64,000 bases of DNA. Origin: Eledone cirrhosa (Eukaryota). Under the pieces are notes generated by a model that was not told the origin of the DNA, searched no databases, and was given only the letters and a program-made list of their open reading frames with translations. The stretch lies in assembly GCA_964016885.1 (NCBI GenBank), contig OZ024741.1, positions 189,472,001 to 189,536,000 of the forward strand. The letters run 5' to 3'. The position numbers and the translations under genes are program-made. Below, piece by piece: positions 9,611 through 48,400 of the stretch (position 1 is its first letter; every line of letters starts with the position of its first letter).

Positions 9611-9624
9611 TATATATATATATA

Positions 9625-14272: not shown

Positions 14273-14323
<51 letters not shown>

Positions 14324-14692
14324 GTTGTGAGTTCAATTCTCGGACCGGGTGATGTGTTGTCTCCTTGAGCAAAATACTTTATATCATATTGCTCCAGTTT
14401 ACTCAGCTGTGGAAATGAGTACCGGCCTGCCTGCCCAGCCAGTGGGATGGCGTTATCTTATGGCTGGTCACAGCACGACGTGCTGTGACCAGCGGCGCCG
14501 ATTGGCGCCCAACAGACTGGTCGGTCAAGGTGATCAAGGTGATATATATATACACGTTGATACAGACACAGATATAAATATCATCATCATCATCACCATC
14601 ATTGTTTTTATGCCAGCTTTTCCATAAATACATCTAGAAATACATATGGATACATGCATATATATGTTTCATTTCATTAATTCATTTCATTT

Positions 14693-22118: not shown

Positions 22119-22309
22119 TATACTACTACTAGCAGAAGTGCCCGGCATTGCTCGAAGTTTAATTGCTTTAAAGTACTTTTAATGATTCCACTCAATTATG
22201 AATATTGAGGCATTGAAAGTAAATACGGGTAAGTTTGAAAATATACAACAATAGCATCTACTCACTATATGTCAGACTGGCAAGACTGCAGTGGTGCTGA
22301 ATAGAGGAG

Positions 22310-23910
22310 TCACAACACCTCTCTGTAGACCACATTTTTTGTTCTGCCTTTGGGTGCAAGTATGAATAAGTTCTGCTTGCATCCCACTCTTGAGTATGCG
22401 ACGTATAATTGGCCGTGTGAGAAGCACGGCTGGGCTAAATGCAGGCCTGCTGTTGATAGCGTTTGGCCTTGGGACTTATTGATTGACATCGCGAAGTAAA
22501 GTTTAACGGGGAATTGAAGTCGGCGCAGAGTACAGGGGCATTCCGTACCTGATGGAGTTAATGGTATTCTGGGTATGAAGACGTTTTCTCCAGCGCCGCA
22601 GCCCGTGAGAATTGTGGCTTCAATTACATGCGGCAGGAGGTTTCTTACCACTAACCGTGTTCCGTTGCAGAGACGTGGTGGTTCCAGGTTCCTCAACAGC
22701 ATGACTGGAGTCCCAACTTTGATGCGCAGTTCATGAGGTGGCAGTCCAGAGAGGTCCAAGGAATTGTAGGTACGGAGGTTTCCAGGAATGCGTTGCAGAA
22801 GGTCCTCATTGATTTTTGCAACTGAGACATTTTTGGGAGCCAATATGGCTCTATCACAGAGCCAACTCGTGTTTTTGTAGTTGGTCGCCATATCGGGAAA
22901 GACAGAGGCTGTGAGGTCGTCAACAGTGTCGACAACGGTGTCTACTTGCGAGACTGCCATTTCTCCAACTGCATCTGAAGGTGCAGTGCCGTCACCAACT
23001 GTTAAGAGGTCCTTTGAGAAGTCGGCTGCTGAGTGGTCACCGAGCAGTTGGGCACTCATGTTTGTTGTGAGGGTCAGGATTGTCACTTCCTTCCACAGGG
23101 GAGATGACTTAACGCAAGCCCCCACAGTGTCGGCCCTGGTGGCTTTTGGAACAACTGGAAGAGTTTGTCGAAAATCGCCATACAGCAGTAGAGGTACTCC
23201 CCCCATCGGCCGGTTGCATTCCCTGATGTCTCGTAGGGTCCTGTCTAATGCCTCAAGGGACCCTTTATGGGCCATTGTGCATTCGTCACACACAATTAGG
23301 TGGCATCTTTTCAAGACTTCAGCTTTGTCAGAGTCTTTGGTGATGTTGCAGGTAATTGTGTCATCTGAAGTCGTGTTGAATGGCAGTTTAAATGCGGAAT
23401 GAGCTGTCCTACCTCCAGACAGCAGAGTTGCGGCAATGCCAGAAGCCACAGCCAGGGCGATTCCTTTCTGCTGTCGCAATTTGGCGAGGAGGAGTTTATT
23501 GACGAATGTTTTACCAGTTCCTCCTGGGGCTTCCAAAAAGAAGATACCTCCTCTGCGTTGACGAATGGAAGTGCAAACTGTGTCATACGCCTGCCGTTGG
23601 TCCTGCAACAATTTCGGCTTGTTTTCGTTGATGAACAGTTCGAGGGCGTGGACGTCGTAGGCAGTTTCCTGAATTATGCACGTCGGAAGTTTGTCGGAGC
23701 CCGTTCGTTGACCTTTTGGCAGTCCATAGAATGGAAGGTCATTTCCGCCGGCAGTTAGGATTTTGTCCTCGATGTCAATGAGAGCTTTGTTGAAGAATTC
23801 GCCGCTGAGTCGTACATCGGAATGAGGGAGTAGCAGTTGTCCTTGGTGTATGTAGTCATCGGAAAGGTCCTCTTTGTATTTGTCCCATAAGGATGCAGGG
23901 TCGCTTAACT
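22310..23910 (-). pseudogene. Helitron Pif1-like SF1 helicase domain
   Basis: APGGTGKT, DECTM, GDFRQTLP, RLCNGTRL, INKSQGQT and HGQLYVA. Confidence 0.95.
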
Positions 23911-26900
23911 CAGTGGTCGCCAACATGGGTTCCGCAAAACAAACTCCGGGTTCCTTAAAAAAATAAATATTTACATTACCATTAATATTTTGGGTTTTCT
24001 GAAAAAGGTGCAAAGAAAATGCAAAAGGTGCAATGTATAAATGAACAAGTACTATTGTAGTGTACACAGGTTCCCCACTCCAATTCGTGGAAAACACTAC
24101 TTTCAGTTTCTCACTTGAATTAGCAGAAAAACACTGTTCTGAGATTCGTGGAAATTGAATACTTTCAATTTCATCAATTCTTGGAAAGACATAGTTTTCT
24201 GAATTCTGAGAATTTGACTACTACTAATTGAACTTAGAAATTGACCAATCACGAACAAGTAAATGTTGGTCGATGACAGCATAACTTTAAACTGAAAACT
24301 TCAGTTCAGCGAGGTCTCTCAGCCAAGAGACAGGGTCAGTTCGCTGTTCTCACAACGTAAGTTCAGTAGAATGTTTTCAATAGAGAACACGTTTTATCTG
24401 CTGTCCTCACAAAAGCTTTAAAGTCGTCTAAAGTTTCCTCACTGAGTGAACTCGCTTACTAGTCGTTTTCAACATGCATCCAGTTCCACAGACAATTCTA
24501 AATAAGAACACGTTACATTCTGTTGTACTTTGCACAGAAAATATAACGCCTGTAAAGTTTAGACTACTAACAAAGGTAATTTTGTATTCCATGCATACAC
24601 TATAAGCTTTGCCACACAATTATGTATTCATTTGATGACATCTGCATTCACAATTGAGAAATTACTTTATACAATAAATATATATGTCCACAAACATTTG
24701 ACTAAACTTTATTTGTTCCAATCTAATATATGTTTAACGCAGCCTAAAGCCTTCTTATATTATATCTAACTTTGAGTCAAAATAGATAGAAGATATCTGA
24801 ATTAATTTCCAATACCATCGTCACATCTACACTATCAGCTGATTTGCATTTTTTGCACCTTTTAGTATGGCGGATATTTAAATATATTTACATTACCAAT
24901 AATATTTAATACGACCCTAAAGTAGTATATGCAGGAAGTGCTGGACTCTGAAAAAAATTTCTTCTAGTTAACTGTAGATAAATAACGTTGATATGATGTC
25001 TACTGCAAAGAAGCTGAAGTTAGATACCAGCAGTAAGGTTAGACAGTGGTGTGATGATTATGTTAGATAAGGATTTCAAAAAGCTGACACTAAAAAAGAT
25101 ACACCAGATCAGCCCATGTGTTTGCTATGTTCAAAAGTTCTATCAAATAGCTGTTTAAATCCTGCAAAACTTAAAAGACACATTGATACTAATCACACCA
25201 ATGATAAAAACAAGTCACTGGAATACTTTACTTCGCTGAAAAACAACATAAAAAAATCACAAGCTAATATGTATGACTTGTTTTGTAAAAAGTCAGATAG
25301 AAATAAAGCTTTAACAAGAACATCTTTTGAGATTTCACATTTGATTGGTAAAAACAAGAAACCATTTACATTAGGAGAACAGTTAATTCTGCCAAGTATA
25401 AAAATTGCTACAGAGAATCTTTTTGAAAGCTGCAGTATTAAGGACAAAGAAAAATTAAGCCAGTTACCATTGTCAGCAAATACCGTAAAAAGAAGGATAA
25501 TTGATATTTCTTCTGATATAGAAAATCAGATACTAACTGCACTAAAGAAAAGCACATGTTTTGGTCTGCAAGTAGACGAAACTACGGATATTAATAACAA
25601 GGCTCAATTAATTTGCTATGTACGGTTTGTAGACCTTGATAAAAAAGAATTAGTAGAAGAGTATTTGTTTTGTCTGGCATTAGACATCACAACTAAAGGT
25701 CAAGATATATTCAATAAAATTGAAGAGTATTTTTTAAAAAATGGTGTATCTTGGAGCAAGTTGACTTCAATAACAACAGATGGAGCAGCTGCAATGACTG
25801 GTAAAAATTCTGGTTTGATTGCAAAAATTAAAGAACAGACCCCAAATTGTATTTCAAACCATTGTATGATTCATCGAGAGGTTTTGTGTTAAAAAAATTC
25901 AAAGACAGAAATGCTCAAATATTAAATGACCAGCTGAAAGACATTGTCAAAATTATCAATTTGATCCATGCAAGAGCAAAAAATTCTAGAATGTTTGAAT
26001 CTATTTGTGAATCTTCTGGAAGTAATTATAATAGATTATTATTGAACAACGATGTGCGTTGGCTGTCTTTTGGGGATGCTATGAAGAGAGTTTTTGAACT
26101 GAGAGAAGAAATAATAGTTTTTCTAAAAAAACAGAATGATGAAAGAGCAAGTGTATTAGAAACCAATGAATGGAATGTGCAACTCGCTTATTTAGTAGAC
26201 ATTTTTGGTGAACTGAACAAACTAAATAAGTGACTTCAGGGTAACAATGCAGATATTTTTACTTCAATCAATTTTATTACATATTTTCAATCAAAATTAA
26301 ACATCTTTATAAAAAGAATTGAATCGGACAATTACTTTCAAACCTTGAAATAGAGCTTAAAAAGAGAGAAAATTTTGACTCCAGCAATCTCAAGAAGATT
26401 ATTCTTTCTCATTTAAATGTGCTTTCCACAGGTTTTTCAGATTATTTTGACTTGATGGAAAAATATATTGTTAGCGGAAATTTATGGATAAAAAACCCGT
26501 TCACCGAGATCGAGCAGTTAGTGTCAGAAAATGACGCTGGAAATTGTAAACATTTACTACCTGCCCAATGCTTACATCAGTTGATGGATTTGAATTCAAA
26601 CGAAGACCTGAAAGTAATATTCGAAAGCAGAAAGAAAGAACTATGGATCGACTTATTCTTGATTGGGGAGTTTAATGAAATCAGCTAACTTGCATTGAAG
26701 TATTTGACTTTATTCCCATCTAGCTATTTGTGCGAAAAAGGGTTTTCGCAGTTGGTGGAAATCTGCACAAAGAAGAGGAATAAACTGTCAGCAATTGACG
26801 AGTGTATGAGACTGTCGATTTTCTAAACTCACTGATGAGGCGCAGCAGCAGAAAAGCCATTGTGTTCGATTACATACACACGCATGAAACACTAAAATAA

Positions 26901-27007
26901 ATAAATACTTTATTATTTTTTTTGAAAAGTTTTGTATTGTATAGGTTCCGTGAAGAATTCAAAATATTTAGAGGGTTCCTCGGTTTTAGAAAGGTTGGCG
27001 ACCACTG
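23911..27007 (+). mobile_element. hAT (Buster/Charlie family) DNA transposon
   Basis: 14-bp TIRs CAGTGGTCGCCAAC / GTTGGCGACCACTG. 8-bp TSD GCTTAACT/ACTTAACT with a central TA. Confidence 0.95.
24993..26830 (+). pseudogene. Disrupted hAT transposase (ZBED5/SCAND3-like)
   Basis: BED finger CLLC...LKRHIDTNH, LQVDETTD, TTDGAAAM, HCMIHRE, RWLS and YLCEKGFS; broken by stops and frameshifts. Confidence 0.9.
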
Positions 27008-27015
27008 ACTTAACT

Positions 27016-29978
27016 CACATGTCTGCAGTAGCACCGCAAAGAGTTGCCGAAGAGTTCACGCTGAGCGTATTGTAGCTGCCTCCGCCAATGTTGCATCCCA
27101 CTGAACGCCATCTTCCAGTCGACCCCGTTTAAGGCAGGCTGCGCGGAATGAAGTACAAAGCTCTCCGTCGATTGTTTTCATATCGTCGAAAGATGTCGGT
27201 CCTACCACGTCAAGCAGTAGAAGGCGGAGATAAAAGCATTCCTGTTGGTTAGGATGAATGGTGTACACTCTCCCAAGAGTAGGGGACATTTTAATGTCTG
27301 GATGTCCCTCGACGGGTTGTCCTTTCACCCTTCTTAACCAAATTCTGTTGTCTGTGTTCCATGTGTAGTATGATGGCACCTGAGAGTAGAAGAGGGTCTT
27401 GGCGAAGGGATCGTTTCGGCATAACTTAAAAAATGCCCTAAGTGTGGTGTCCTTGAGTTCCTCTGCTATCTCAGCAGCGGTGGAGGCGGTGAAGTAGACT
27501 CTTTGGTCGTTTTCAAGGTGCACCGCCAACTGTTTGATTGGGGGGTAGTTATGGTGTATTGCAAAGTAGAAGAATCGCCAGAACGCTTCATTGCTGCTGA
27601 TGTATCGGCCGACCTGGTATCGAATTACTTCGTCTCGGTTGTTCTCCATTGTAAGACCAAAGGACGCAGCATCGGACCCCTTATTGATATACTTGCAGAC
27701 GTACTTTATCGATTTGACGGAGTGGCAGTATTCAACGTTAATGTGGGCGTTAAACAATTTAAGCAGAAGTGGGCAGTAGGGTACAATCCACCGGTTGTCG
27801 ACGTTGTGATGTGGTATTTTCGCAACAATTCCTCCGTCCGCTGGCTCCCTGCGGCAGTATAATGGATAACCGTCGCCACCTGTCCAAGTTTCTCGGAGGA
27901 ATGGCCTAGGATACCTCTTCATGCACCTTCTTTCTTTAATGCATGGCGAATTCATATTGAAACCGTTTCCGCATGGCCCATGAACCATGTGAGCAGTGAC
28001 GATGTTGTGGAGTTCTCTGTCCAATTTTGGGTCGGGTATTTCTGCTGAAATGATGCTGTCAACGCTGCTTCCGTTGATTTTCGTTATCAGCCAAATGAGT
28101 AGGTGAGCGTGTGGCAGACCTCTCTTTTGCCACTCAACGGTGTATACGTAACACCTAACATCTCCAAAGGCCTTACCTGATTTTAGGAGTTCAATAAGTT
28201 TTGTCAACTTCAAGTGAAAGACTCGTGCCGTAAGATCGTGTCTGTCTGACGCCCTTTGTCCGGGGAATAATTCCGCTGTAATTTCATTCCACTTAAGGTT
28301 GCATGTTGAAGCGATGAAGAGATCCGGTCTGCCGTAGAGACGCACGTACGTCATAACATCCTCTGTGCGTTCACTCATGTATCGGGGACTCCCAATGAAG
28401 GTCGACGGAAGGATACAATGTTTTCCTAGGTTCTCGGGATTGACGTCATTCCTTACTCCATCCCGTAAGTGAATGTAGCTGTCCGAACGCAGGCGTGCTT
28501 GATTGTTCCTTATGTAGCACAGCCTTTCAGATTCCATCTTTGCGCACGTGTCTACAGCAAGCTGGTTGAAGAGTACTCTTGCACGGTGGAGTTGGTTAAA
28601 GCAGCATTCGCGGACCATGAATCGGTAGGTGTAGAATTGCATGGAGGAAACAGTTTTGTTGCTGTTGCACAAAGGAATTCCAAAGTGGTATCCGTCGTCA
28701 CCTAATGGGAAAAGTAGGGGATATTGGAATGCGTCGTAGGACCTATGCGTCTCGCTGATCCGTTGGAGACTATTGTCCCTACACTGAAGTATGATGTCCC
28801 GCTTGTTGTACTGTTCTCCCTCCATGAAGAAGCACAGCTATTTCATTGCACGTGGGAGTGTTAAAACGTCCGGCGTGGGTGCCTGGTGGTTTCCTGTCAG
28901 CGTCGATTATAACAGCAAAATTTGGCAACGGAGCAGCCTCCAATGCGCATTTAAAACTGCGAATGTAGTTGTTTTCGTGCAGCATTCTCTCGAGTTACAA
29001 CAGAATTTTCATGTCTGTGCCAGGCGAAATTGAAGCGCGTCGTTCCGCTTGGTCCAAATAGTCAGTGACAAAGTATAGCTGTAGGAACTGGGGCTGTCCG
29101 TCTGTCGTGGGCAGTAGCGAACCGATTCTGTGGTCAATTTGTCCTTGAACTTTAAAGGTAGGCATGAAGCCGTCCTCGCGTATGATGTTAGCTCCGAAAG
29201 GGGTCATTTGGAATGCAGCGTTGTATCTCCTGGAATATCGAAGGAAGTGTTCCGACTCCGCTGTGGCACCGGTCAGTAGAGACTTCAAAGGTTGTGGTAG
29301 TTCCTGTAGAAGAGGCAGTTTCACTTTGCCGTCAGAGCAGCACATCCCTGAAGTTTCCCCAGGCCATTTTTTTGCCCGACAATATTGGCAAATGACAGAC
29401 ATGGATCCAATCTGAACGTCTGGCATCAGTGCATAGTTTACTGTTGGGTCATAGTGGAAAGCCTTATGAGACCACTGAGTGCAACTGATCCTCTGTGTGC
29501 CTCGTTAAGCACTCATGCGGAGTGCGTTGGTGTTTAGCCTTTGTAATTGAATTTGCGCAGTCTCTGATGCGCGAACGGAAGCTGTTGAAGCGGCGTCCGT
29601 ACGTTGACGTCTGGAACGCTGCCCTTCGGCAGCACGTGATGCAGCAGTTGAGGCAGCATCTCTTCGTCGTCATCTGTAACGGTATTCTTCGTCCTCACCG
29701 TCACGTGCCACAGCGGTGGAGGCAGCATTTTTGCTTCATCATCGAGAATGTTGTTCATCAGTTTGCGCTGCACGTGCAACTGCAGTTACAAATGCATTTC
29801 CGGAAAGGCGGATGCTCCTCTTTTTTTCTGTCTCGGTTGCCCGGGTAATTGCATTTCGAGGTGAATTTTGTGACAACCGAGTCAATTTTTCTACGGACAA
29901 CTCTGTAGCTCTTCTTCGTTTGGCAGCAGAAGAAGCTTTAGTTTGGCGACTAAGTCGTGGTCTTTTTGGGGGTGGCAC
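27016..29978 (-). pseudogene. Helitron RepHel N-terminal part (Zn-finger and HUH Rep domain)
   Basis: CQYCRAKKWPGETSGMCC, RPDLF, VEWQKRGLPHAH and KYVCKYINKG, spread over ORFs 29739-29978, 28995-29426, 28779-28985 and 27056-28825. Confidence 0.92.
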
Positions 29979-30150
29979 GTTTGTTGTTTTATAAATTCAT
30001 CTGTTGCTTTTGAATATTTGTTATTTGATGTAAAATGTAACGTTTAGTGTTATCGGTTTTTTAAATTTTGATATTTGATGTATGACAAACGAAGAGGGTG
30101 AATGATCTATTATAGAGAGAAAAGATTTGTCGTTGTTCTAAACTGTAATG

Positions 30151-30455
30151 GAGACGGAGGCAGTAACCTTTTAAAGAGAGTTGCAGAGGAGATTGAGGGT
30201 AGTGAGAGGACTGAAGCGTGTAAGAGAGAGGGTTATCAAAGTTTGTGTCGCGTTCCTTCAGAGACGGAGGCAGTAACCTTTTAAAGAGAGTTGCAGAGGA
30301 GATTGAGGGTAGTGAGAGGAATGAAGCGTGTAAGAGAGAGGGTTATCAAAGTTTGTGTCGCGTTCCTTCAGAGACGGAGGCAGTAACCTTTTAAAGAGAG
30401 TTGCGGAGGAGATTGAGGGTAGTGAGAGGAATGAAGCGTGTAAGAGAGAGGGTTA
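30151..30455. repeat. ~110-bp tandem repeat (~2.7 copies) in the Helitron 5' region
   Basis: GAGACGGAGGCAGTAACCTTTTAAAGAGAG recurs at 30151, 30261 and 30371. Confidence 0.9.
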
Positions 30456-30831
30456 CAGCATGTATTTAGTTTTATCGATTTTTTTTCATAGAAACAGGAA
30501 AGTTTTGGCAAAAGTAATTACGCGTTGACCTGCCCTGGTAAATTTGGAGCACATTGGGAAAAAAATCATAAAAATCGGTAGAGAATGTGGAAATGCATAA
30601 AAACCATACACACACACACAGACAGACATCTACCGTTTTATATATATAGAGAGATGTGTACATGCGTATAATTACATTTATGTATCAGCTGTGCTAGGGG
30701 GAGGAATAAAATTCTAATTTTATTTATATATATATATGTATGTGTTCCGAAGAGATTGTTTTGGTAAAAACAGGAACAAGCTGGAGAAAGCTCTCAACAT
30801 TCATAGTTTTTAGTTATGATGGAGATTCAGT

Positions 30832-31066
30832 ATAATATCATTAATAAAGATGCTGATATTACATAAATAGTTTATTCATTATAATTATTTCAATGGTTCT
30901 CCCATGCTATCAAGATATAATTCATGCATTTGTTGTTATGAGAATGGTATCCTCAGATGAAATTTGATTTTGTGATATGCCGCCGGCAGGAAAGAACACA
31001 CGTCCTTTTGCTCGTGCGTCCAGCAGACATATGAGTTCCTGAAAGGGTCTCCCAGCAGTCGTGTTT
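30832..31066 (-). mobile_element. Penelope-like element 3' end with hammerhead (30875-30961)
   Basis: Minus-strand translation SKRTCVLSCRRHITKSNFI* resembles the PLE C-terminal NKRSE..SKCRH motif. It is followed by TTCAT-CTGAGGA...GAAA-TAATTA-TA-ATGAA. Confidence 0.65.
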
Positions 31067-31129: not shown

Positions 31130-33960
31130 ATTGGGGGCCGTAAATCAGCAGAAAGGTAACCCCTTAAGTATGTTGAGTTGATCTGTATCAAACGATAGTC
31201 TATGGGGTTGTAAATCAGCAGAAAGGTAACCCCTCAAGTATGTTGTGTTGATCTGTATCAAACGATAGACTATGGGGTCGTAAATCAGCAGAAAAGTAAC
31301 CCCTCAAGTATGTTGAGTTCATCTGTATCAAACAATAGTCTATGGGGTTGTAAATCAGCAGAAAGGTAACCCCTCAAGTATATTGTGTTGATCTGTATCA
31401 AATGATAGTCTATGGGGTTGTAAATCAGCAGAAAGGTAACCCCTCAAGTATGTTGTGTTGATCTGTATCAAACGATAGTCTATGGGGTCGTAAATCAGCA
31501 GAAAGGTAACCCCTCAAGTATGTTGTGTTGATCTGTATCAAATGATACTCTATGGGGTTGTAAATCAGCAGAAAGGTAACCCCTCAAGTATGTTGTGTTG
31601 ATCTGTATCAAACAATAGTCTATGGGGTTGTAAATTAGCAGAAAGTAACTCCTCAAGTATATTGTGTTGATCTGTATCAAACGATAGTCTATGGGGTTGT
31701 AAATCAGCAGAAAGGTAACCCCTCAAGTATGTTGTGTTGATCTGTATCAAACAATAGTCTATGGGGTTGTAAATCAGCAGAAAGGTAACCACTCAAGTAT
31801 ATTGCGTTGATCTGTATCAAATGATAGTCTATGGGGTTGTAAATCAGCAGAAAGGAAACCACTCAAGTATATTGCGTTGATCTGTATCAAATGATAGTCT
31901 ATGGGGTTGTAAATCAGCAGAAAGGTAACCCCTCAAGTATGTTGTGTTGATCTGTATCAAACAATAGTCTATGGGGTTGTAAATCAGCAGAAAGGTAACC
32001 CCTCAAGTATGTTGTGTTGATCTGTATCAAACGATAGTCTATGGGGTTGTAAATCAGCAGAAAGGTAACACCTCAAGTATATTGTGTTGATCTGTATCAA
32101 ACGATAGTCTATGGGGTTGTAAATCAGCTGAAAGGTAACCCCTCAAGTATATTGTGTTGATCTGTATCAAACGATAGTCTATGGGGTTGTAAATCAGCAG
32201 AAAGGTAACCCCTCAAGTATGTTGTGTTGATCTGTATCAAATGATAGTCTATGGGGTTGTAAATCAGCAGAAAGGTAACCCCTCAAGTATGTTGTGTTGA
32301 TCTGTATCAAACAATAGTCTATGGGGTTATAAATCAGCAGAAAGGTAACCCCTCAAGTATGTTGTGTTGATCTGTATCAAACGATAGTCTATGGGGTTGT
32401 AAATCAGCAGAAAGGTAACTCCTCATGTATATTGTGTTGATCTGTATCAAACGATAGTCTATGGGGTTGTAAATCAGCTGAAAGGTAACCCCTCAAGTAT
32501 ATTGTGTTGATCTGCATCAAATGATAGTCTATGGGGTTGTAAATCAGCAGAAAGGTAACCCCTCAAGTATGTTGTGTTGATCTGTATCAAACGATAGTCT
32601 ATGGGGTTGTAAATCAGCAGAAAGGTAACCCCTCAAGTATATTGTGTTGATCTGTATCAAACGATAGTATATGGGGTTGTAAATCAGCTGAAAGGTAACC
32701 CCTCAAGTATATTGTGTTGATCTGTATCAAACGATAGTCTATGGGGTTGTAAATCAGCAGAAAGGTAACCCCTCAAGTATGTTGTGTTGATCTGTATCAA
32801 ATGATAGTCTATGGGGTTGTAAATCAGCAGAAAGGTAACCCCTCAAGTATGTTGTGTTGATCTGTATCAAACAATAGTCTATGGGGTTGTAAATCAGCAG
32901 AAAGGTAACCCCTCAAGTATGTTGTGTTGATCTGTATCAAACGATAGTCTATGGGGTTGTAAATCAGCAGAAAGGTAACCCCTCAAGTATATTGTGTTGA
33001 TCTGTATCAAACGATAGTCTATGGGGTTGTAAATCAGCTGAAAGGTAACCCCTCAAGTATATTGTGTTGATCTGCATCAAATGATAGTCTATGGGGTTGT
33101 AAATCAGCAGAAAGGTAACCCCTCAAGTATGTGTTGATCTGTATCAAACGATAGTCTATGGGGTTGTAAATCACCAGAAAGGTAACCCCTCAAGTATATT
33201 GTGTTGATCTGCATCAAATGATAGTCTATGGGGTTGTAAATCAGCAGAAAGGTAACCCCTCAAGTATGTTGTGTTGATCTGTATCAAACGATAGTCTATG
33301 GGGTCGTAAATCAGCAGACAGGTAACCCCTCAAGTATGTTGTGTTGATCTGTATCAAATGATAGTCTATGGGGTTGTAAATCAGCAGAAAGGTAACCCCT
33401 CAAGTATATTGTGTTGATCTGCATCAAATGATAGTCTATGGGGTTGTAAATCAGCAGAAAGGTAACCCCTCAAGTATATTGTGTTGATCTGTATCAAACG
33501 ATAGTCTATGGGGTTGTAAATCAGCAGAAAGGTAACCCCTCAAGTATATTGTGTTGATCTGTATCAAACGATAGTCTATGGGGTTGTAAATCAGCAGAAA
33601 GGTAACCCCTCAAGTATGTTGTGTTGATCTGTATCAAACAATAGTGTATGGGGTTGTAAATCAGCAGAAAGGTAACCCCTCAAGTATGTTGTGTTGATCT
33701 GTATCAAACAATAGTGTATGGGGTTGTAAATCAGCAGAAAGGTAAACCCTCAAGTATGTTGTGTTGATCTGTATCAAACGATAGTCTATGGGGTTGTAAA
33801 TCAGCAGAAAGGTAACCCCTCAAGTATATTGTGTTGATCTGTATCAAACGATAGTATATGGGGTTGTAAATTAGCAGAAAGGTAACCCCTCAAGTATGTT
33901 GTGTTGATCTGTATCAAATGATAGTCTATGGGGTTGTAAATCAGCAGAAAAGTAACCCCT
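31130..33960. repeat. 70-bp satellite array, left arm (~40 copies)
   Basis: Unit TAAATCAGCAGAAAGGTAACCCCTCAAGTATGTTGTGTTGATCTGTATCAAACGATAGTCTATGGGGTTG, recurring at 31141, 31211, 31281 and onward. Confidence 0.97.
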
Positions 33961-34224
33961 TGTAGTGGCTGAGATGGTCGCTTGGCAACTAGCAGTTGCC
34001 TCCCCTTAACAACCCTTCAGGGAGCGGGGGCAAAAATACACCCGGACACAGACACAGGTTCACTCACTCTTTTTGGACCACGGACATGAACAGACGTGGA
34101 AAGATCCGCTCCTCAAAATATTGACGTTGTAGGAAATTTACTAAATTATTGCATTAAATAAAATGATTGTTAGACTTGATTGTGCATTTATTTATTCGAC
34201 AAAGAGAAACATCCCTTTTCTTTA
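33961..34224 (+). repeat. 5' LTR (TG...TA)
   Basis: Direct repeat of 39608-39871 with 3 mismatches seen by eye; followed by TTGGCGACCC. Confidence 0.95.
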
Positions 34225-34660
34225 TTGGCGACCCTGACCATAAAGAATGAAAACGCAGCCTATTTGAGTCCGAAATTCTTTTTAACGGCAATGTGGAATG
34301 GCTTAACATTTGGAATGTCCGAATCACTTAGCGTAAGTCCATAAAATTCATTATATTCCATTTGTTATAGCACGCATACAGACAAACACAAAAATACAAC
34401 ACACAAAAAAAAAAAATAAAGGATTTCTCTGGATATAGAACTTTGCTTCCAACATTCTGTGGAAATTACAAATGGAGATATTTCGTTTTCCCGCGTTCAG
34501 CTTGTCTTCTCCAATCCCAGCCATCTGATTGGCTGCATCGTGCCACATGACGGCTTCATCACGGACACATTTTTAAATCAGCCATCTTGGATTTTCTTAC
34601 CATTAATTTTCATAGAAAATGATTTTTTTTATTATTAAAATTTTCTTTAGAATATTTTTT

Positions 34661-35645
34661 TTTAAAGAAAAAAAATTAGCAGTATTTCAAAACGGCTACC
34701 ACCAATTACCAGCAATCAGCAGCAACACCTGGCTAACTATTGACCAACACCAAAAAGTCATCAAATACGTGGCACCATGAGTCAACATCATTGCCGTCCT
34801 TCGCAGGCGACATCAAGTTGTGGTTTGCGCAGCTGGAATGTTTCTTCGAATTGACGAAGACAAAGGAACAGCATAAGCTGAAGGTCCTGATCAATGGCCT
34901 ACCTGTTTCCTTGGCATTCTCGGTGAAGGACGTTGTGACGGATTTAGACGCCGACGTTACCTACGGCTCATTAAAAAAAGAAATCCTTCGCAGAAATACC
35001 AAGTCGGTAGAGAGCCGTTTTCGGGAGTTGTTGGACGATGCTCAAATGGGTGACAGGAAGCCGAGCTCCTATTTGCGACATTTGCGGGAGTTGAACGACT
35101 CCCAGGGGATTGACACCCCCTTCATAAAGCAACTTTTTTTGCGCACTTAGTGGTAGACGTGAGAAAAAAAGTTGCTTTATGAAGGGGGTGTCAATCCCCT
35201 GGGAGTCGCTCAACTCCTGCAAATGTCGCAAATAGGAGCTCGGCTTCCTGTCACCCATTTGAGCATCGTCCAACAACTCCCGAAAACGGCTCTCTACCGA
35301 CTTGGTATTTCTGCGAAGGATTTCTTTTTTTAATGAGCCGTAGGTAACGTCGGCGTCTAAATCCGTCACAACGTCCTTCACCGAGAATGCCAAGGAAACA
35401 GGTAGGCCATTGATCAGGACCTTCAGCTTATGCTGTAACTTTGTCTTCGTCAATTCGAAGAAACATTCCAGCTGCGCAAACCACAACTTGATGTCGCCTG
35501 CGAAGGACGGCAAATGATGTTGACTCATGGTGCCACGTATTTGATGACTTTTTGGTGTTGGTCAATAGTTAGCCAGGTGTTGCTGCTGATTGCTGGTAAT
35601 TGGTGGTAGCCGTTTTGAAATACTGCTAATTTTTTTTCTTTAAAA
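34661..35645. repeat. ~480-bp inverted duplication of the leader and gag N-terminus, with ~25-bp spacer
   Basis: ORFs 34740+ and 34971- encode the same peptide (LPSFAGDIKLWFAQLE...FIKQLF). The arms are 34661-35140 and ~35163-35645. Confidence 0.95.
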
Positions 35646-36001
35646 ATAGTTTAGAGAAGGATTCATTAGAGCAACTTGCCGCGTCCGCGGATAAGATACT
35701 TGAGGTGGACTCGAACAGCAATCAGCATAATTCTTATGTGGCTTCATCTTGCGTCCCTCCAAGCAGTTCTTCTGTGGCCGACGGCAAACGGTTAGAGTTG
35801 ATTGAAGCTCTCACCAAAATGGTAGAAGATTTGACGGTACATCACAGAGAGCCTTCTCAACGTTTGAGGTATCGTTCGCCGCCGTTCTCTATTCATCGCC
35901 AGCACTACAACGCAGGCAACAATAATTCTTCGTTGTGTTGGTATCATGCTAACTTCGGCAGTAGGGCACAACGTTGTCGCACGCCCTGTGATTACAAGTG
36001 A
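34777..36001 (+). pseudogene. gag: Gag, disrupted by the inverted duplication and a 1-bp deletion
   Basis: WFAQLE and KPSSYLRHL in the N-terminal part. The C-terminal part resumes at ~35646 (SLEQLAASADKILE) and ends in CWYHANFGSRAQRCRTPC (Cx2Hx9Cx3C). Confidence 0.85.
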
Positions 36002-36003
36002 TC

Positions 36004-39000
36004 GGGAAACGCAAAGCAGAGCCACTAGGAGCGGCTAGTGAACTCTGGGAAAACCGACCGAACCGCCATCTTTTCGTATACGACCTGCGGTCAAAAAAAT
36101 TTTTCCTTGTCGATACTGGCGCGTCGCTGAGTATTTGGCCAGTCAGTTATCTCAAAAAAAGCCCAGCCGAAGCAGATATAAATCTACGAGCAGTCAACCA
36201 CACGGCCATTCGAACGTATGGGCAAATTTCGCTTCCTCTTCGGTTAAAAAATTTGCGGCGTGATTTGAAGTGGAAGTTTACTATCGCCGACTTGCCATAC
36301 GCCATTTTGGGAGCGGATTTTCTCCACCATTTTTTCCTTGTTGTTGGACATTCGCAGACAACGCCTTGTTGATGCTGAAACAGGCCTTTCTTTCGAGGGT
36401 TCAGAGCCAGACGTCGCCACTGTCAGCTCTTCCTTTTTCTTGGCTGAAGTGGGCAACCAGTATCAAAGCCTGTTACATTCATTCCCTCAGTTGACGCAGG
36501 GAAAGTTACGAATTAATAGCCCTGATCATGCGATTGAACACTTCATATCTACTACAGGTCCACCTGTTTTCTCACGTCCTCGAAGATTGTCTACAGAGAA
36601 GTTGAAAGCTGCACGTCTTGAATTCGACCACATGCTGGAATTGGGAATAATTCGGCGCTCCACAAGTCCTTGGGCATCGCCTCTACATATGGTACCTAGA
36701 TCTTCTGGGGATTGGAGATCGACGGGTTACTACCGACGCTTAAACGCGATTACTGTGCCTGACCGTTATCCAATCCCGCATTTGCAGGATTTTGCATCGT
36801 CATTGCAGGGTTGCAGAATCTTTTCTAAGCTTGATTTGATCCGCGCTTATAATCAAATTCCCGTTAACAAGGAGGATATCCCAAAGACTGCTATTGCCAC
36901 TCCTTTCGGATCATTCGAGTTCCTCACTATGCCTTTCGGCCTTAGAAATGCTGCAAGTACCTTCCAACGATTTATGGATGATATTACTCAGGGCCTGGAT
37001 TTTGTGTACACGTATATCGATGACGTGTTGATTGCTAGTTCTTCTCCTCAGCAGCATTCAAAGCATCTAGATCTCGTATTTCGTCGTTTACAGAGATATA
37101 ATGTTCGAAATAATGCTTCCAAGTGTGTTTTCGGCTCGACTTCACTAACATTTTTAGGCCATCTGATTGACGCCGATGGTATTCGACCTCTTCCTGAGAA
37201 GGTTAAGGCAGTATCGGATTTGCCTCCGCCAAGTTCACTGCGTCAATTGCGTCAATTCCTGGGCCTTGTAAATTTTTATAGGCGATTCGTACCTGGTTGT
37301 TCCAAATTGCTGTTCTCGTTGACAGAGATTTTTAAGGGTTGCCGGCGTAAGAATATGGACATTTCCTTAAATAAAACGCAACTTGATGATTTTAAAAAAG
37401 TGAAAAAGGCGTTAGCGAACGCGTCTTTGCTCGCTCACCCAGTACCCAACGCCGAGCTATCGCTCTGTGTTGATGCTTCGGATAGTGCCGTGGGCGCAGT
37501 CTTACAGCAGAAGTGTGATGGGGTACAGCAACCACTCGAGTTCTTTTCGAGGAAGTTAAAGCCTGCCGAAACTCGCTATAGCACCTTTGGAAGGGAGCTA
37601 TTAGCAATTTATTTATCAGTGAAACATTTTGCTCATGTACTTGAAGGTAGAACATTCACCATTTTCACTGATCATAAACCCTTGACGTTTGCTCTTCGAA
37701 CTAAGGCAGACAAATACTCGACCAGAGAAACGAGACATCTGGACTTCATCTCACAGTTCACGGACGACATTCAACATATTCCGGGTTCTTTGAATACAGC
37801 GGCCGATGCGCTGTCTCGCCTGCCGATCGCATCGATTTCGTCTTCCGAGGAGATAGATTTACATCGAATGGCAGCTGCCCAACCCACTCTCGAATCGTTG
37901 GATGTTACATTGCCAGAGTTTGTACATTGCAAACTGAAATACATTCCGATCTCAACTGCTGACGGACAGATACTGTGTGATGTTTCGTTGGACTCACCAC
38001 GACCTCTAGTCCCAGTGGAACATCGACGAACTGCGTTTCTCGCTTTACATGGCATTTCTCACCCAGGAGTATCAGCCTCAGTAAAACTCATAACAGCCAG
38101 ATTTTTCTGGCCTGGTATGAGACGTGACATTGCTGCTTGGTGTCGTTCCTGTGTCGCTTGCCAACAAGCGAAAGTTCATAGACATGTTAAGGCTCCTCTC
38201 GGAACCTTCACCTGCCCCGATGCAAGATTTCGTCACATTCATGTGGACATCGTCGGCCCGTGGCCGGTTAGTCGTGGTTTTTCGTATCTTTTGACGATTG
38301 TTGACCGTTTTTCGCGTTGGCCTGAAGCCGTCCCTATAACAGATATCACCGCCGAAACCACAGCCGGTACTCTCGTATCTTCGTGGATCGCTCGTTTCGG
38401 TGTACCAACCACCATAACAACGGATCGTGGTCGTCAATTTGAGTCTAACCTCTTCCGAGAGCTAACCCAAATCCTGGGGGCTACTCGAATAAGAACCACG
38501 GCTTACCACCCAGCCTCAAACGGAATGGTGGAAAGATTCCACAGGCAGCTCAAAGTCTCCTTAAGGGCTTCCATGGACTCTTCACGTTGGAGCGAGTACC
38601 TACCCATTGTATTGTTGGGTATTCGGTCGACGGTAAAGGTGGACCTTGGGTTCTCCTCTGCCGAATTAGTTTATGGTACGCCTCTGGCGTTACCGGGGCA
38701 AATGCTGGCCCCTTTTGACCTGACTTCGCAGGACCCCGCTTCCTACGTGTCCCGGCTTCACTCTTATTTCAAGGATCTACCACCGATGGGCACTAGGAAG
38801 CAGACTGTAAAAACTGCCGTCCCAAGGGATATTGCCTTGTGGAGCCATGTGTTCGTTAGAGACGACGCCGTGAGACCCCCTCTTCAACGGCCGTACTCTG
38901 GACCCTATCGTGTGCTTGCTCGCACAGACAAACATTTCACAGTGGACATTCGGGGTTCCAGGGAAACGGTTTCCGTTGATCGTCTCAAACGAGCAAACCT

Positions 39001-39088
39001 GGACAATGACATAATGACACTTGAAACTCAAATGCCCCCCTCTTTTTCTTTGCCACACAGGCCTATTTCTTCCCCCCTCCCACCATAA
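36004..39088 (+). CDS. pol: Pol polyprotein (protease, RT, RNase H, integrase), with one frameshift near 36338
   Basis: [39 protein letters not shown]...[30 protein letters not shown] and the GPY motif. Confidence 0.92.
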
Positions 39089-39607
39089 ACACACAGAACT
39101 ACGACCCGTTCTGGGCGAAGGGTGCATTGGCCCCGTAAGCTATGCTATAAACTAAATTGTATTTTTTATTTTTTTATTTCCTTCCAATTGTTTTTGTTGT
39201 ACATTGCATTTTGTTACTTTTGGTTTCTTGACTGCCTACAGCAGTGTCAATATATTATATTTTGCGTAACATTACGACTGTTGTCAATTCTGACACAGTC
39301 CCTTTTTTTTTAGTGCATTTTTATAACTATGCTACATATGGCATTTTCATTGCCTAGCAAAACATTTTTTTTCTTGTTTATCGCATCTGGGGCCCCTTTA
39401 TTGCGAAGAGTGTTATCTTTTCATGCATTTTGCATCTTTTACTGTACGTTTTTTTTTGTTGTTTTTTTCTCTGTGTTAATGCTTGCAGACATGAACCTAT
39501 TTATTAACTTTTTTTTTTTAATTTGTTGATACATTCTTCTACATTTTGTAAACTACCTTCGCTTCATTGTTAACGATTGTTCGACAAAAAATCTGCTCCG
39601 AGGTGAA

Positions 39608-39871
39608 TGTAGTGGCTGAAATGGTCGCTTGGCAACTAGCAGTTGCCTCCCCTTAACAACCCTTCAGGGAGCGGGGGCAAAAATACACCCGGACACAGCC
39701 ACAGGTTCACTCACTCTTTTTGGACCACGGACATGAACAGACGTGGAAAGATCCGCTCCTCAAAATATTAACGTTGTAGGAAATTTACTAAATTATTGCA
39801 TTAAATAAAATGATTGTTAGACTTGATTGTGCATTTATTTATTCGACAAAGAGAAACATCCCTTTTCTTTA
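39608..39871 (+). repeat. 3' LTR
   Basis: Matches 33961-34224; followed by TSD CCCT and resumption of the satellite in phase. Confidence 0.95.
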
Positions 39872-40754
39872 CCCTCAAGTATATTGTGTTGATCTGTATC
39901 AAACGATAGTCTATGGGGTTGTAAATCAGCAGAAAGGTAACCCCTCAAGTATGTTGAGTTGATCTGCATCAAATGATAGTCTATGGGGTTGTAAATCAGC
40001 AGAAAGGTAACCCCTCAAGTATGTTGAGTTGATCTGCATCAAACGATAGTCTATGGGGTTGTAAATCAGCAGAAAGGTAACCCCTCAAGTATGTTGAGTT
40101 GATCTGCATCAAATGATAGTCTATGGGGTTGTAAATCAGCAGAAAGGTAACCCCTCAAGTATGTTGAGTTGATCTGCATCAAACGATAGTCTATGGGGTT
40201 GTAAATCAGCAGAAAGGTAACCCCTCAAGTATGTTGAGTTGATCTGCATCAAATGATAGTCTATGGGGTTGTAAATCAGCAGAAAGGTAACCCCTCAAGT
40301 ATGTTGAGTTGATCTGCATCAAACGATAGTCTATGGGGTTGTAAATCAGCAGAAAGGTAACCCCTCAAGTATGTTGAGTTGATCTGCATCAAATGATAGT
40401 CTATGGGGTTGTAAATCAGCAGAAAGGTAACCCCTCAAGTATGTTGAGTTGATCTGCATCAAACGATAGTCTATGGGGTTGTAAATCAGCAGAAAGGTAA
40501 CCCCTCAAGTATGTTGAGTTGATCTGCATCAAATGATAGTCTATGGGGTTGTAAATCAGCAGAAAGGTAACCCCTCAAGTATGTTGAGTTGATCTGCATC
40601 AAACGATAGTCTATGGGGTTGTAAATCAGCAGAAAGGTAACCCCTCAAGTATGTTGAGTTGATCTGCATCAAATGATAGTCTATGGGGTTGTAAATCAGC
40701 AGAAAGGTAACCCCTCAAGCATGTTGAGTTGATCTGTATCAAACGATAGTCTAT
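39872..40754. repeat. 70-bp satellite, right arm (~12.5 copies, dimeric)
   Basis: Same unit with fixed GAGTTGATCTGCATC, alternating AAATG/AAACG. Confidence 0.97.
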
Positions 40755-41276
40755 GCATAGCCAGAATCCAGTAGATAGTGGAAGCAATAAACAGAACTCT
40801 GAGGGTGGGTGAGGTATATACTTTGTTGACAGCGACATTCAAAACAACAGCTACAACAATAACAACAACAACAACAACGACAACAATAGCAAACACTGAC
40901 CAACGTCGCCTACACTGGCCACTGCAGTCGTAGTGATAGTAATACCCCACTTACAACAACAACAACAACCATTGCAATAAATGGAACTCTGAGGTAGGGC
41001 AATATACACTCTTGATGCCATCCATCCTCAAGACAACAGCGACAACAACAACAACGGCAACAACAGCAACACCACCCATTGTCCACACTGGTCATCACAG
41101 TAGTAGTGATATTAGTACCCAGCTAATGGCAACGAGTACATCCCTACCCAAGCACCAGGCAGCGGCAACACTAACAACAACAACAACAACAACAGTAATG
41201 AACCCATCACAGTGACGACGGCAACAAAAAAGGCCTGCTGGTGCGGGTCACCGTAAATAACCGTACTAACATAATT

Positions 41277-41689: not shown

Positions 41690-42015
41690 CACATATGGAG
41701 AACATAGGAACAAATGTAACAAACATTATACATAAATTCTAAAGTAGGTATACATATGGAGAATACGGAACAAGGAACAAGGGATATAAAACACAGACCC
41801 TCGGCTGGGAGACCCTTTCAGGAACTCATATGTCTGCTGGACGCATGAGCAAAAGGACGAGTGTTTTTTCCTGCTGGCGGCATATCACAAAATCAAATTT
41901 CATCTGAGGATGCCGTTCCATTCTCATAACAACAACATATGCATGGGAGAACCGTTGAAATAATTATAATGAATAAACGATTTATGTAACATCAGCATCT
42001 TTATTAATGTTATTA
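41690..42015 (+). mobile_element. Penelope-like 3' end with hammerhead (41899-41973), inverted partner of 30832-31066
   Basis: 41804-42015 is the reverse complement of the left copy. Peptide remnants YIWRIRNK and KRTSVFSCWRH. Core TTCAT-CTGAGGA...GAAA-TAATTA-TA-ATGAA. Confidence 0.65.
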
Positions 42016-42030
42016 TCATATATATATATA

Positions 42031-45261: not shown

Positions 45262-45445
45262 TGTTTCTACATTTGGCACAAGGCCAGCAATTAACCAGTG
45301 CATTACATGTACTTTATTTTATCGACCCCATAAGGATGTAATGCAAAGTTAACCTCGGCAGAATTTGAACTCAGAACGTAAAGAGCCATAACTCTATGCT
45401 GCAAAGTATGGTGTCTGATGTTCTACAGATACTGCCAATCCACTA
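45262..45445 (-). mobile_element. SINE (same family as 41277), whose 5' head overlaps the first satellite monomer
   Basis: Collinear with 41277-41461 up to GATACTGCCAAT. Confidence 0.75.
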
Positions 45446-48400
45446 TACGAAAGTCACCAATCTCCAGCCACAACCCATTCAATCAATGACAAAATAAGTT
45501 TGCCAGATACTGCCAATCCACTATAAGAAAGTCACCAATCTCCAGCCACAACCCATTGAATCAATGACAAAATAAGTTTGCCAGATACTGCCAATCCACT
45601 ATAAGAAAGTCACCAATCTCCAGCCACAACCCATTCAATCAATGACAAAATAAGTTTGCCAGATACTGCCAATCTACTATAAGAAAGTCACCAATCTCCA
45701 GCCACAACCCATTCAATCAATGACAAAATAAGTTTGCCAGATACTGCCAATCCACTATAAGAAAGTCACCAATCTCCAGCCACAACCCATTCAATCAATG
45801 ACAAAATAAGTTTGCCAGATACTGCCAATCCACTTTACGAAAGTCACCAATCTCCAGCCACAACCCATTCAATCAATGACAAAATAAGTTTGCCAGATAC
45901 TGCCAATCTACTATAAGAAAGTCACCAATCTCCAGCCACAACCCATTCAATCAATGACAAAATAAATTTGCCAGATACTGCCAATCCACTATCGCGAAAG
46001 TCACCAATCTCCAGCCACAACCCATTCAATCAATGACAAAATAAGTTTGCCAGATACTGCCAATCCACTATAAGAAAGTCACCAATCTCCAGCCACAACC
46101 CATTCAATCAATGACAAAATAAGTTTGCCAGATACTGCCAATCCACTATACGAAAGTCACCAATCTCCAGCCACAACCCATTCAATCAATGACAAAATAA
46201 GTTTGCCAGATACTGCCAATCTACTATAAGAAAGTCACCAATCTCCAGCCACAACCCATTCAATCAATGACAAAATAAATTTGCCAGATGCTGCCAATCC
46301 ACTATCGCGAAAGTCACCAATCTCCAGCCACAACCCATTCAATCAATGACAAAATAAGTTTGCCAGATACTGCCAATCCACTATAAGAAAGTCACCAATC
46401 TCCAGCCACAACCCATTCAATCAATGACAAAATAAATTTGCCAGATACTGCCAATCCACTATAAGAAAGTCACCAATCTCCAGCCACAACCCATTCAATC
46501 AATGACAAAATAAGTTTGCCAGATACTGCCAATCCACTATAAGAAAGTCACCAATCTCCAGCCACAACCCATTCAATCAATGACAAAATAAGTTTGCCAG
46601 ATACTGCCAATCCACTATACGAAAGTCACCAATCTCCAGCCACAACCCATTCAATCAATGACAAAATAAGTTTGCCAGATACTGCCAATCCACTATAAGA
46701 AAGTCACCAATCTCCAGTCACAACCCATTCAATCAATGACAAAATAAGTTGGCCAGATACTGCCAATCCACTATAAGAAAGTCACCAATCTCCAGCCACA
46801 ACCCATTCAATCAATGACAAAATAAGTTTGCCAGATACTGCCAATCCACTATAAGAAACTCAGCAATCTCCAGCCACAACCCATTCAATCAATGACAAAA
46901 TAAGTTTGCCAGATACTGCCAATCCACTATACGAAAGTCACCAATCTCCAGCCACAACCCATTGAATCAATGACAAAATAAGTTTGCCAGATACGGCCAA
47001 TCCACTATAAGAAAGTCACCAATCTCCAGCCACAACCCATTCAATCAATGACAAAATAAGTTTGCCAGATACTGCCAATCCACTATAAGAAAGTCACCAA
47101 TCTCCAGCCACAACCCATTCAATCAATGACAAAATAAGTTTGCCAGATACTGCCAATCCACTATAAGAAAGTCACCAATCTCCAGCCACAACCCATTCAA
47201 TCAATGACAAAATAAGTTTGCCAGATACTGTCAATCCACTATAAGAAAGTCACCAATCTCCAGTCACAACCCATTCAATCAATGACAAAATAAGTTTGCC
47301 AGATACTGCCAATCCACTATAAGAAAGTCACCAATCTCCAGCCACAACCCATTCAATCAATGACAAAGTAAGTTTGCCAGATACTGCCAATCCACTATAA
47401 GAAAGTCACCAATCTCCAGCCACAACCCATTCAATCAATGACAAAATAAGTTGGCCAGATACTGCCAATCCACTGTAAGAAAGTCACCAATCTCCAGCCA
47501 CAACCCATTCAATCAATGACAAAATAAGTTTGCCAGATACTGCCAATCCACTATAAGAAAGTCACCAATCTCCAGCCACAACCCATTCAATCAATGACAA
47601 AATAAGTTTGCCAGATACTGCCAATCCACTATAAGAAAGTCACCAATCTCCAGCCACAACCCATTCAATCAATGACAAAATAAGTTGGACAGATACTGCC
47701 AATCCACTATAAGAAAGTCACCAATCTCCAGCCACATCCCATTCAATCAATGACAAAATAAGTTGGCCAGATACTGCCAATCCACTATAAGAAAGTCACC
47801 AATCTCCAGCCACAACCCATTCAATCAATGACAAAATAAGTTTGCCAGATACTGCCAATCCACTATAAGAAACTCACCAATCTCCAGCCACAACCCATTC
47901 AATCAATGACAAAATAAGTTTGCCAGATACTGCCAATCCACTATAAGAAAGTCACCAATCTCCAGCCACAACCCATTCAATCAATGACAAAATAAGTTTG
48001 CCAGATACTGCCAATCCACTATAAGAAAGTCAACAATCTCCAGCCCCAACCCATTCAATCAATGAGAAAATAAGTTGGCCAGATACTGCCAATCCACTAT
48101 AGGAAAGTCACCAATCTCCAGCCACCACCCATTCAATCAATGACAATATAAGTTGACCAGATACTGCCAATCCACTATAAGAAAGTCACCAATCTCCAAC
48201 CACAACCCATTCAATCAATGACAAAATAAGTTTGCCAGATACTGCCAATCCACTGTAAGAAAGTCACCAATCTCCAGCCACAACCCATTCAATCAATGAC
48301 AAAATAAGTTTGCCAGATACTGCCAATCCACTATAAGAAAGTCACGAATCTCCAGCCACAACCCATTCAATCAATGACAATATAAGTTTGCCAGATACTG

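What the first reader, a model, noticed from the sequence alone, without database searches (positions are those of the whole stretch)
34661..35650. Gypsy carrying a ~480-bp fold-back hairpin of its own leader and gag: a candidate built-in silencer ('killer') allele
Seen: the forward arm runs to a T-run at 35140, switches strand ~25 nt ahead (the spacer is the reverse complement of codons SRLPLSAQ, via T/A-run microhomology), copies back ~480 bp, then rejoins gag at ~35646. The arms differ at several sites, and only the inverted arm has the in-frame start MSQHHLPSF, so this is not a perfect-copy artefact. Known: inverted-duplicated TE derivatives such as maize Mu killer make hairpin RNA that silences the family in trans. 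Inference: LTR-driven transcription would yield long dsRNA against gag, giving siRNA or ADAR substrate.
Basis: partly seen in the sequence, partly recalled or inferred. Interest (0 to 1): 0.75.

Follow-up and report, generated by a model that had tools for sequence, protein, structure and literature searches.

The report
One-off fold-back in dead octopus Gypsy
One old, broken copy of an octopus jumping gene carries a 480-base back-to-front duplicate of its own start, likely a single copying slip; it would fold into a long RNA hairpin if transcribed, but it has not spread and likely does not silence its family.

Summary
The fold-back is in the assembly: arms 34659-35140 and 35164-35646, with a 23-nt spacer that is the reverse complement of the gag bases just ahead. 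It lies in a broken CsRn1-like Ty3/Gypsy copy (33961-39871) in a satellite array of an octopod genome. Compared with normal copies it is an out-and-back inter-strand template switch (order 3-1-2-4 of Loytynoja and Goldman): 2-3 nt microhomologies, 11 nt lost. It has not spread: each junction pattern hits 1 place in 3.0 Gb, against 32 for the normal junction. The arms carry 4 private changes, none shared and none A-to-G, so the event is about as old as the insertion. The copy is among the oldest in its family, and 22 of 36 relatives look younger than the hairpin. Molluscs are reported to lack the endo-siRNA pathway that Mu killer uses. Transcription, small RNAs and raw-read support remain untested. 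The scan has already noted similar fold-backs in other LTR elements of this and other genomes. Verdict: real, ordinary and likely inert.

The parts
31140..33960 (.). 70-bp satellite array, left part (about 40 units)
   Evidence: TRF
33957..33960 (+). Left 4-bp target-site duplication (CCCT)
   Evidence: other copies mostly show 4-bp duplications
33961..34224 (+). 5' LTR, 264 bp, TG...TA; AATAAA at 34157
34225..34240 (+). Primer-binding-site-like sequence right after the LTR (tRNA-Trp type by recall; tRNA not fetched)
34659..35140 (+). Forward arm: end of leader plus 5' gag (ATG at 34777; 1-nt loss near 34791 shifts the frame; private G>A at 35095)
   Evidence: Pfam DUF7041 E 5e-12
35138..35140 (.). 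First switch point: end of a T7 run, 3-nt TTT/AAA microhomology
35141..35163 (-). Inverted 23-nt spacer (gag sequence that normally follows the T-run; one private change at 35149)
35164..35646 (-). Inverted arm: antisense copy of the same leader and gag stretch (private changes at 35218 and 35437-35438)
34971..35528 (-). Minus-strand reading frame of 185 aa from the inverted ATG: about 130 aa of N-terminal Gag, then a tail read from the antisense of the forward arm
   Evidence: DUF7041 E 8e-11
35645..35646 (.). Return switch point: 2-nt AA microhomology, next to an imperfect 11/16 inverted match; 11 nt of gag lost
35647..36001 (+). 3' remainder of gag with CX2HX9CX3C (CHCC) motif at 35936-35989
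   Evidence: motif definition from PMC2582038 passage
35992..39088 (+). pol (protease, RT, RNase H, integrase), split by a 1-nt frameshift near 36330
39608..39871 (+). 3' LTR, 3 substitutions from the 5' LTR
39872..39875 (+). Right target-site duplication (CCCT)
39872..40755 (.). 70-bp satellite array, right part (about 13 units)
   Evidence: TRF

Best explanation
This is a single-copy inverted duplication inside a broken CsRn1-like Gypsy element, likely made by one out-and-back template switch at or soon after insertion, and it is likely inert as a silencer. Shown: the product reads leader-gag forward to a T-run, then 506 nt of the opposite strand starting about 25 nt ahead, then forward again about 37 nt past the first switch. 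Inferred: the growing strand's TTT end paired with AAA on an opposite-polarity template ahead of it, copied back to the leader's A/T tract, and returned through AA (perhaps helped by an imperfect inverted match there). Because the spacer is inverted, the template cannot have been the growing strand itself. I favour reverse transcription in the particle (second RNA or cDNA as template, about 60%) over later chromosomal replication (lagging-strand template, about 40%). The copy then decayed neutrally. If its LTR still fires, the RNA would form a 480-bp stem that in an octopus would more likely be edited by ADAR than diced into siRNA (inferred from the literature, untested).
For: [quoted passage not shown] One place in the genome for each junction pattern, 32 for the normal one; 0 of 39 other copies carry the duplication. 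Each arm has 2 private events and the arms share none; arm divergence 0.41-0.52% per lineage equals LTR divergence 0.57% (Fisher p 0.70); origin at insertion is favoured 1.9- to 3.8-fold over any later time. The copy has 35 private substitutions in 3925 bp, more than 34 of 36 relatives, so it left no offspring among them. 22 of 36 relatives are younger than the point estimate of the hairpin's age; 26 of 35 have fewer LTR differences than this copy. A younger subfamily (median 0.20% versus 0.61%, p 6e-5) expanded although the 36 relatives share a median 63% of the arm's 21-mers. Host is an octopod with two miRNA-type AGO and two PIWI loci found. No host-gene Pfam domain among 71 other frames of the window, so no read-through promoter is evident.
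Against: No read confirms the junctions. The hairpin's age rests on 4-5 changes (95% interval 0.11-1.06% for 4); at the lower bound only 3 of 36 relatives are younger. The copy's private changes are poorer in transitions than its relatives' (15 of 35 versus 344 of 549, p 0.03), which could mean some are assembly errors in a satellite region and would blur the dating. The 5' LTR is nearly unchanged, so transcription is plausible. If the allele is rare in the population, family activity in non-carriers says nothing about its effect in carriers. The 506-nt tract is far longer than the short events modelled in PMC5453318. The Argonaute search could miss a divergent siRNA-type gene, and short host exons or long introns would escape.
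Confidence: 0.75

Rival explanations
1. Antisense seed for piRNA or ADAR substrate: an LTR-driven transcript holds 506 nt of antisense gag, which is processed into piRNAs or edited, and dampens the family in carriers without a Dicer-2 route.
For: Two PIWI loci in the genome. In Drosophila an antisense transposon fragment in a cytoplasmic transcript is enough for piRNA production and trans-silencing (PMC13226689, passages). Molluscs have abundant piRNAs (PMC12479628, passages). Relatives share a median 63% of arm 21-mers. The window copy's own subfamily has no member younger than 0.33%.
Against: The antisense stretch would be paired in a near-perfect stem. In the fly study the effect needed host-gene transcription, and no host gene is evident here. 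The younger subfamily, about 98-99% identical over the gag part of the arm, kept expanding.
Confidence: 0.08
2. Assembly or long-read artefact: a fold-back chimeric read was built into the contig.
For: No read evidence for the junctions was obtained. The site is flanked by satellite arrays. Low transition share among private changes (p 0.03).
Against: The arms differ by substitutions private to each arm, including a CpG-type change and a dinucleotide change. The path returns to the forward strand at a precise microhomology with an 11-nt loss and an inverted spacer, the form of a described natural mutation class. LTRs, target-site duplication and flanks are otherwise regular.
Confidence: 0.07
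3. Mu-killer-like allele: hairpin RNA is diced to 21-22-nt siRNA and heritably silences the family in trans.
For: Shape matches: inverted duplication of the 5' transcribed part of the element behind its own promoter, as in the Ac killer p1-ww-id4, which seems to use the element's own promoter (bioRxiv 10.1101/2020.01.07.897926, passages). Fold of -965.7 kcal/mol. Mammalian oocytes make endo-siRNA with the miRNA machinery, a route PMC11114477 leaves open for Trochozoa.
Against: DICER2 and siRNA-type AGO reported lost in Mollusca and no endo-siRNA signature found (PMC11114477, PMC12479628). Only miRNA-type AGO and PIWI loci found here. The family stayed active after the estimated origin.
Confidence: 0.05
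4. Break-and-fold-back repair in the chromosome: a broken end folded back on its own T-run and primed synthesis, and the spacer was flipped later by recombination between the arms.
For: TTT/AAA 23 nt apart is the geometry of self-priming fold-back, and the 11-nt loss resembles end trimming. Other, older fold-backs lie in non-LTR DNA of this window (9624-10568).
Against: It needs a second event to explain the antisense spacer, whereas one inter-strand switch explains everything (PMC5453318).
Confidence: 0.05

Closest known systems
Template-switch mutation of type 3-1-2-4 (Loytynoja and Goldman 2017, PMC5453318; passages read)
   Same: Order of the four switch points, inverted repeat plus inverted spacer, only 2-3 nt identity at the switches, inter-strand template required.
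   Different: The copied tract is 506 nt rather than the short tracts modelled there, and it lies in a retroelement, so reverse transcriptase is a candidate polymerase.
Maize Mu killer and Ac killers (PMC3440606, abstract; bioRxiv 10.1101/2020.01.07.897926, passages)
   Same: Natural inverted duplication of the 5' transcribed part of a transposon that would give long dsRNA.
   Different: Those are DNA transposons in a plant with siRNA-directed methylation; their repeats include the terminal/promoter region, and dsRNA, siRNA and heritable trans-silencing were shown. Here the arms leave out the LTR, the host lineage reportedly lacks the endo-siRNA pathway, and the family went on expanding.
CsRn1 clade of Ty3/Gypsy elements (PwRn1, AgCR; PMC2582038, passages read)
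   Same: CHCC Gag motif, 4-bp target duplication, about 5.4-kb unit length in normal copies, PR-RT-RH-IN order, no env; named pol relatives at 57-60% are mostly flatworm proteins.
   Different: Octopod host; no tree with named CsRn1 members was built; this copy is rearranged and frameshifted.
Antisense-insertion piRNA sources (Tirant in Drosophila, PMC13226689; passages read)
   Same: Antisense retroelement sequence inside a transcript as a possible trigger.
   Different: There it sits unpaired in a host transcript; here it would be paired with its own sense arm and no host transcript is evident.

Membership tests
Transposon killer alleles (Mu killer, Ac killers) | Inverted duplication of part of the element | tested here: met
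Transposon killer alleles (Mu killer, Ac killers) | Transcribed into dsRNA from a flanking or own promoter | not testable with these tools
   No RNA data for the locus; 5' LTR nearly unchanged; no host-gene domain in the window
Transposon killer alleles (Mu killer, Ac killers) | siRNAs from the arms | not testable with these tools
   No small-RNA library available
Transposon killer alleles (Mu killer, Ac killers) | Host has a long-dsRNA-to-siRNA pathway | tested here: inconclusive
   Only miRNA-type AGO and PIWI loci found, in line with PMC11114477 and PMC12479628; Dicer genes not searched, and a divergent AGO could be missed
Transposon killer alleles (Mu killer, Ac killers) | Family activity stops in trans after the allele arises | tested here: not met
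   22 of 36 relatives younger than the hairpin's point age, 3 of 36 younger than its lower bound; caveat: population frequency of the allele unknown
Template switch type 3-1-2-4 | Switch-point order 3<1<2<4 with inverted repeat and inverted spacer | tested here: met
   against 28 normal copies; definition
Template switch type 3-1-2-4 | Short identity at both switch points | tested here: met
   3 nt and 2 nt
Template switch type 3-1-2-4 | Made at a chromosomal replication fork | tested here: inconclusive
   Timing favours origin at insertion only 1.9- to 3.8-fold
CsRn1 clade | Gag CX2HX9CX3C (CHCC) motif | tested here: met
   35936-35989
CsRn1 clade | 4-bp target-site duplication | tested here: met
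CsRn1 clade | tRNA-Trp primer-binding site | tested here: inconclusive
   A TGG-starting site follows the LTR; its likeness to tRNA-Trp is from recall, no tRNA was aligned
CsRn1 clade | Pol groups with CsRn1 in a tree | not tested
   Only a similarity list
ADAR-hyperedited retro-copied hairpin | Same-strand A-to-G changes in both arms | tested here: not met
   0 of 4 arm events (plus the spacer change) are plus-strand A>G

The most novel reading that the evidence does not exclude
A reverse-transcription slip gave an LTR retrotransposon its own silencer: the LTR still drives an RNA whose antisense gag arm seeds piRNAs (or Dicer-1 siRNAs) in an octopus, which would be a natural killer allele working in an animal lineage without the endo-siRNA pathway, and would explain why this copy's own subfamily has no recent members.
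Probability: 0.08. Interest if true: 0.7.

Novelty: new member of a known kind. Interest (0 to 1): 0.2.

Why it matters
As it stands, it matters little: it is a clean, long example of a known template-switch mutation in a dead transposon copy. Its use is as a test case. The arms carry private bases, so one small-RNA or RNA-seq library from a carrier could show what a cephalopod does with a 480-bp endogenous hairpin: dice it, feed it to PIWI, edit it, or ignore it. If it did silence its family, it would show that killer alleles can arise in LTR retrotransposons of animals that lack Dicer-2.

Tried and rejected
Sequencing runs: 8 listed, no RNA holder listed; no evidence on expression either way. 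Contigs of X1-X4 laid on 35115-35900 show only the family's normal joint and no listed piece across either junction; contigs drop rare variants and the animals may differ, so this is uninformative. Raw RAD reads X6-X8 plus X4 on 35115-39600: no raw-read depth over the first junction and 0-1 reads just beyond the second; reads at this copy's private sites nearly all show the family base, but too few molecules to test for 1 copy in about 40. RdRP search: no match, but its control also found none, so uninformative. ADAR scar in the arms: rejected. Propagation by retrotransposition: rejected. Arms copied from two different family members: no support; the arm-specific bases are private except one CpG-type change also seen in 1 of 28 copies; the LTR difference at 34052 is shared by only 1 other LTR. 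Truncated-Gag restriction factor from the minus-strand frame: considered; needs an antisense promoter for which there is no evidence. Two older retrovirology papers on reverse-transcription rearrangements, recalled from memory, were not held, so nothing is cited from them; searches (listings only) gave no paper on this exact reverse-transcription product, and (listing; passages of 2 of 8 papers read) gave no natural gag-hairpin killer of an animal LTR element. The library lacks most subscription papers, so this is not proof of absence. No supplements were read. Rows dropped: L067, L070 and L071 were left out of the private-change count (one LTR only, or 86-90% relatives); 4 of 39 copies lacked two LTR hits; one copy classed in the younger subfamily by the motif test aligns across the leader block.

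Full report
Observation. The window holds an inverted repeat with arms 34659-35140 and 35164-35646, 23 nt apart, 97.6% self-complementary over 990 nt. The arms differ at 5 positions in 4 events. As RNA it folds into one stem of -965.7 kcal/mol.

The element. It runs from 33961 to 39871 between 264-bp LTRs that differ at 3 sites, with a CCCT target duplication, inside a 70-bp satellite. Pfam finds DUF7041 in gag, protease, RT, RNase H and integrase, and no env. Gag ends in CX2HX9CX3C, the CHCC signature of the CsRn1 clade, which also has 4-bp duplications (PMC2582038, passages). The CsRn1 lead and that paper came from earlier scan notes. Named pol relatives are mostly flatworm proteins at 57-60%; no tree was built. 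The copy is broken by a 1-nt loss in the forward gag arm near 34791, by the rearrangement, and by a frameshift near 36330. A PIWI exon of the genome is 98% identical to Octopus bimaculoides and 97% to Argonauta, so the host is an octopod.

Anatomy against normal copies. A genome search with the arm gave 41 matches (40 of 249 candidates scored), two of them the window's arms. All 28 other loci fetched there are collinear. Against them the window reads forward to the end of a T7 run, then the opposite strand from about 25 nt ahead (TTT/AAA, 3 nt), back over 506 nt to the leader's A/T tract, then forward again through AA (2 nt), with 11 nt of gag lost. At the return point a normal copy has an imperfect 11/16 inverted match, tied for best among 1219 registers, though offset by a few bases in the A-run; this is suggestive only. 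The order of switch points is 3-1-2-4, which gives an inverted repeat with an inverted spacer, needs an inter-strand template, and with its mirror case made up 23% of 794 human-chimp events (PMC5453318, passages).

Not propagated. Exact patterns for the two junctions each match 1 place in the 3.0-Gb assembly, the window itself; the normal junction matches 32. None of 39 near-full-length other copies has the duplication or any strand switch beyond short A/T-rich or low-complexity matches of at most about 65 nt. The copy's 35 private substitutions in 3925 bp of its 3' part are shared with none of 36 relatives, so it has no offspring among them.

Age. Each arm has 2 private events and the arms share no private change. 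Arm divergence (0.41-0.52% per lineage) matches LTR divergence (0.57%; p 0.70). Origin at insertion is favoured 1.9- to 3.8-fold over a later time, which leans towards reverse transcription but does not prove it; several unchecked scan notes report similar slips in CsRn1-like elements of this genome and gag fold-backs in fungal copia elements. None of the arm changes is plus-strand A-to-G, so the DNA did not come from an edited hairpin RNA. Limits: the 95% interval on 4 events is 0.11-1.06%, and the copy's private changes are poorer in transitions than its relatives' (15 of 35 versus 344 of 549, p 0.03), so some may be assembly errors.

Did it stop the family? The copy is older than 34 of 36 relatives by private divergence; 22 of 36 fall below the hairpin's point age and 3 of 36 below its lower bound. 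Of 35 copies with two LTRs, 26 have fewer LTR differences than this one and 8 have no substitution. A younger subfamily (24 copies, median 0.20%) followed the window's own (12 copies, median 0.61%; p 6e-5), and relatives share a median 63% of the arm's 21-mers, so they would be targets. This argues against a fixed, effective killer. It cannot exclude an effect in carriers of a rare allele, and the lack of very young copies in the window's own subfamily is the one pattern that a silencer would also give.

Host machinery. [quoted passage not shown] PMC11114477 reports loss of DICER2 and siRNA-type AGO in Mollusca while leaving a miRNA-machinery route open (passages); PMC12479628 found miRNAs and piRNAs but no endo-siRNAs in 32 molluscs and suggests editing may melt dsRNA (passages). 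Here a Piwi-domain search (25 of 25 candidates scored) gave four loci: two AGO genes, one with an exon 57 of 62 identical to human AGO2 and the other 2 residues from it, and two PIWI genes. A piRNA route is the more plausible way for this locus to matter, since antisense fragments in transcripts suffice in Drosophila (PMC13226689, passages), but there the fragment is unpaired and carried by a host gene; no host-gene domain was found among 71 other frames of the window.

What was not obtained. No read-level confirmation and no expression data; see Tried and rejected. An artefact is unlikely given arm-private substitutions and a precise return junction, but stays open at about 7%.

Verdict. A real, single template-switch inverted duplication in a dead CsRn1-like element (0.75), shaped like a killer allele but failing the tests of spread and of family shutdown that could be run here. 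New member of a known kind; interest 0.2. The bold reading, a self-made silencer acting through piRNAs in an octopus, has probability about 0.08 and would deserve 0.7.

Noticed in passing
window 9624-10568: An older fold-back in non-LTR DNA: 9624-10179 is a 90% palindrome, and a third, direct copy lies at about 10308-10568.
   Followed up: partly
window 13940-15009: Two copies of a SINE-like repeat in inverted orientation (80%) with a third partial copy between them.
   Followed up: no
window about 22300-30460: Helitron on the minus strand (Helitron_like_N, PIF1 helicase) with a DUF4371 frame on the plus strand at 25071-25892 between the two Helitron frames, and a 110-bp tandem repeat at 30151-30455.
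   Followed up: no
window 30832-31056 and 41804-42016: Inverted 230-bp repeats (86.5%) bracket the 70-bp satellite and the Gypsy; possibly a DNA-transposon-like unit that carries the array.
   Followed up: no
window 45426-64000: 78-bp tandem array, at least 238 units, running off the window's end.
   Followed up: no
L033-L069 (family copies in G000): Two subfamilies: an older one with the window's leader and a younger one lacking about 30 nt of it (median private divergence 0.61% versus 0.20%).
   Followed up: partly
L057 (G000:C28:117485009-117491609): Copy whose two LTRs differ at 16 sites and lack a target duplication; likely a recombinant of two insertions.
   Followed up: no
L054 and L064 (both G000:C8, about 440 kb apart): Same flanking bases on both sides; likely one insertion duplicated with its surroundings.
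   Followed up: no
L056: An internal deletion of about 330 bp joins gag and pol into one long frame.
   Followed up: no
G000:C15:25.91 Mb, C23:2.33 Mb, C2:93.54 Mb, C24:1.10 Mb: Four Argonaute-family loci: two miRNA-type AGO paralogues and two PIWI.
   Followed up: partly
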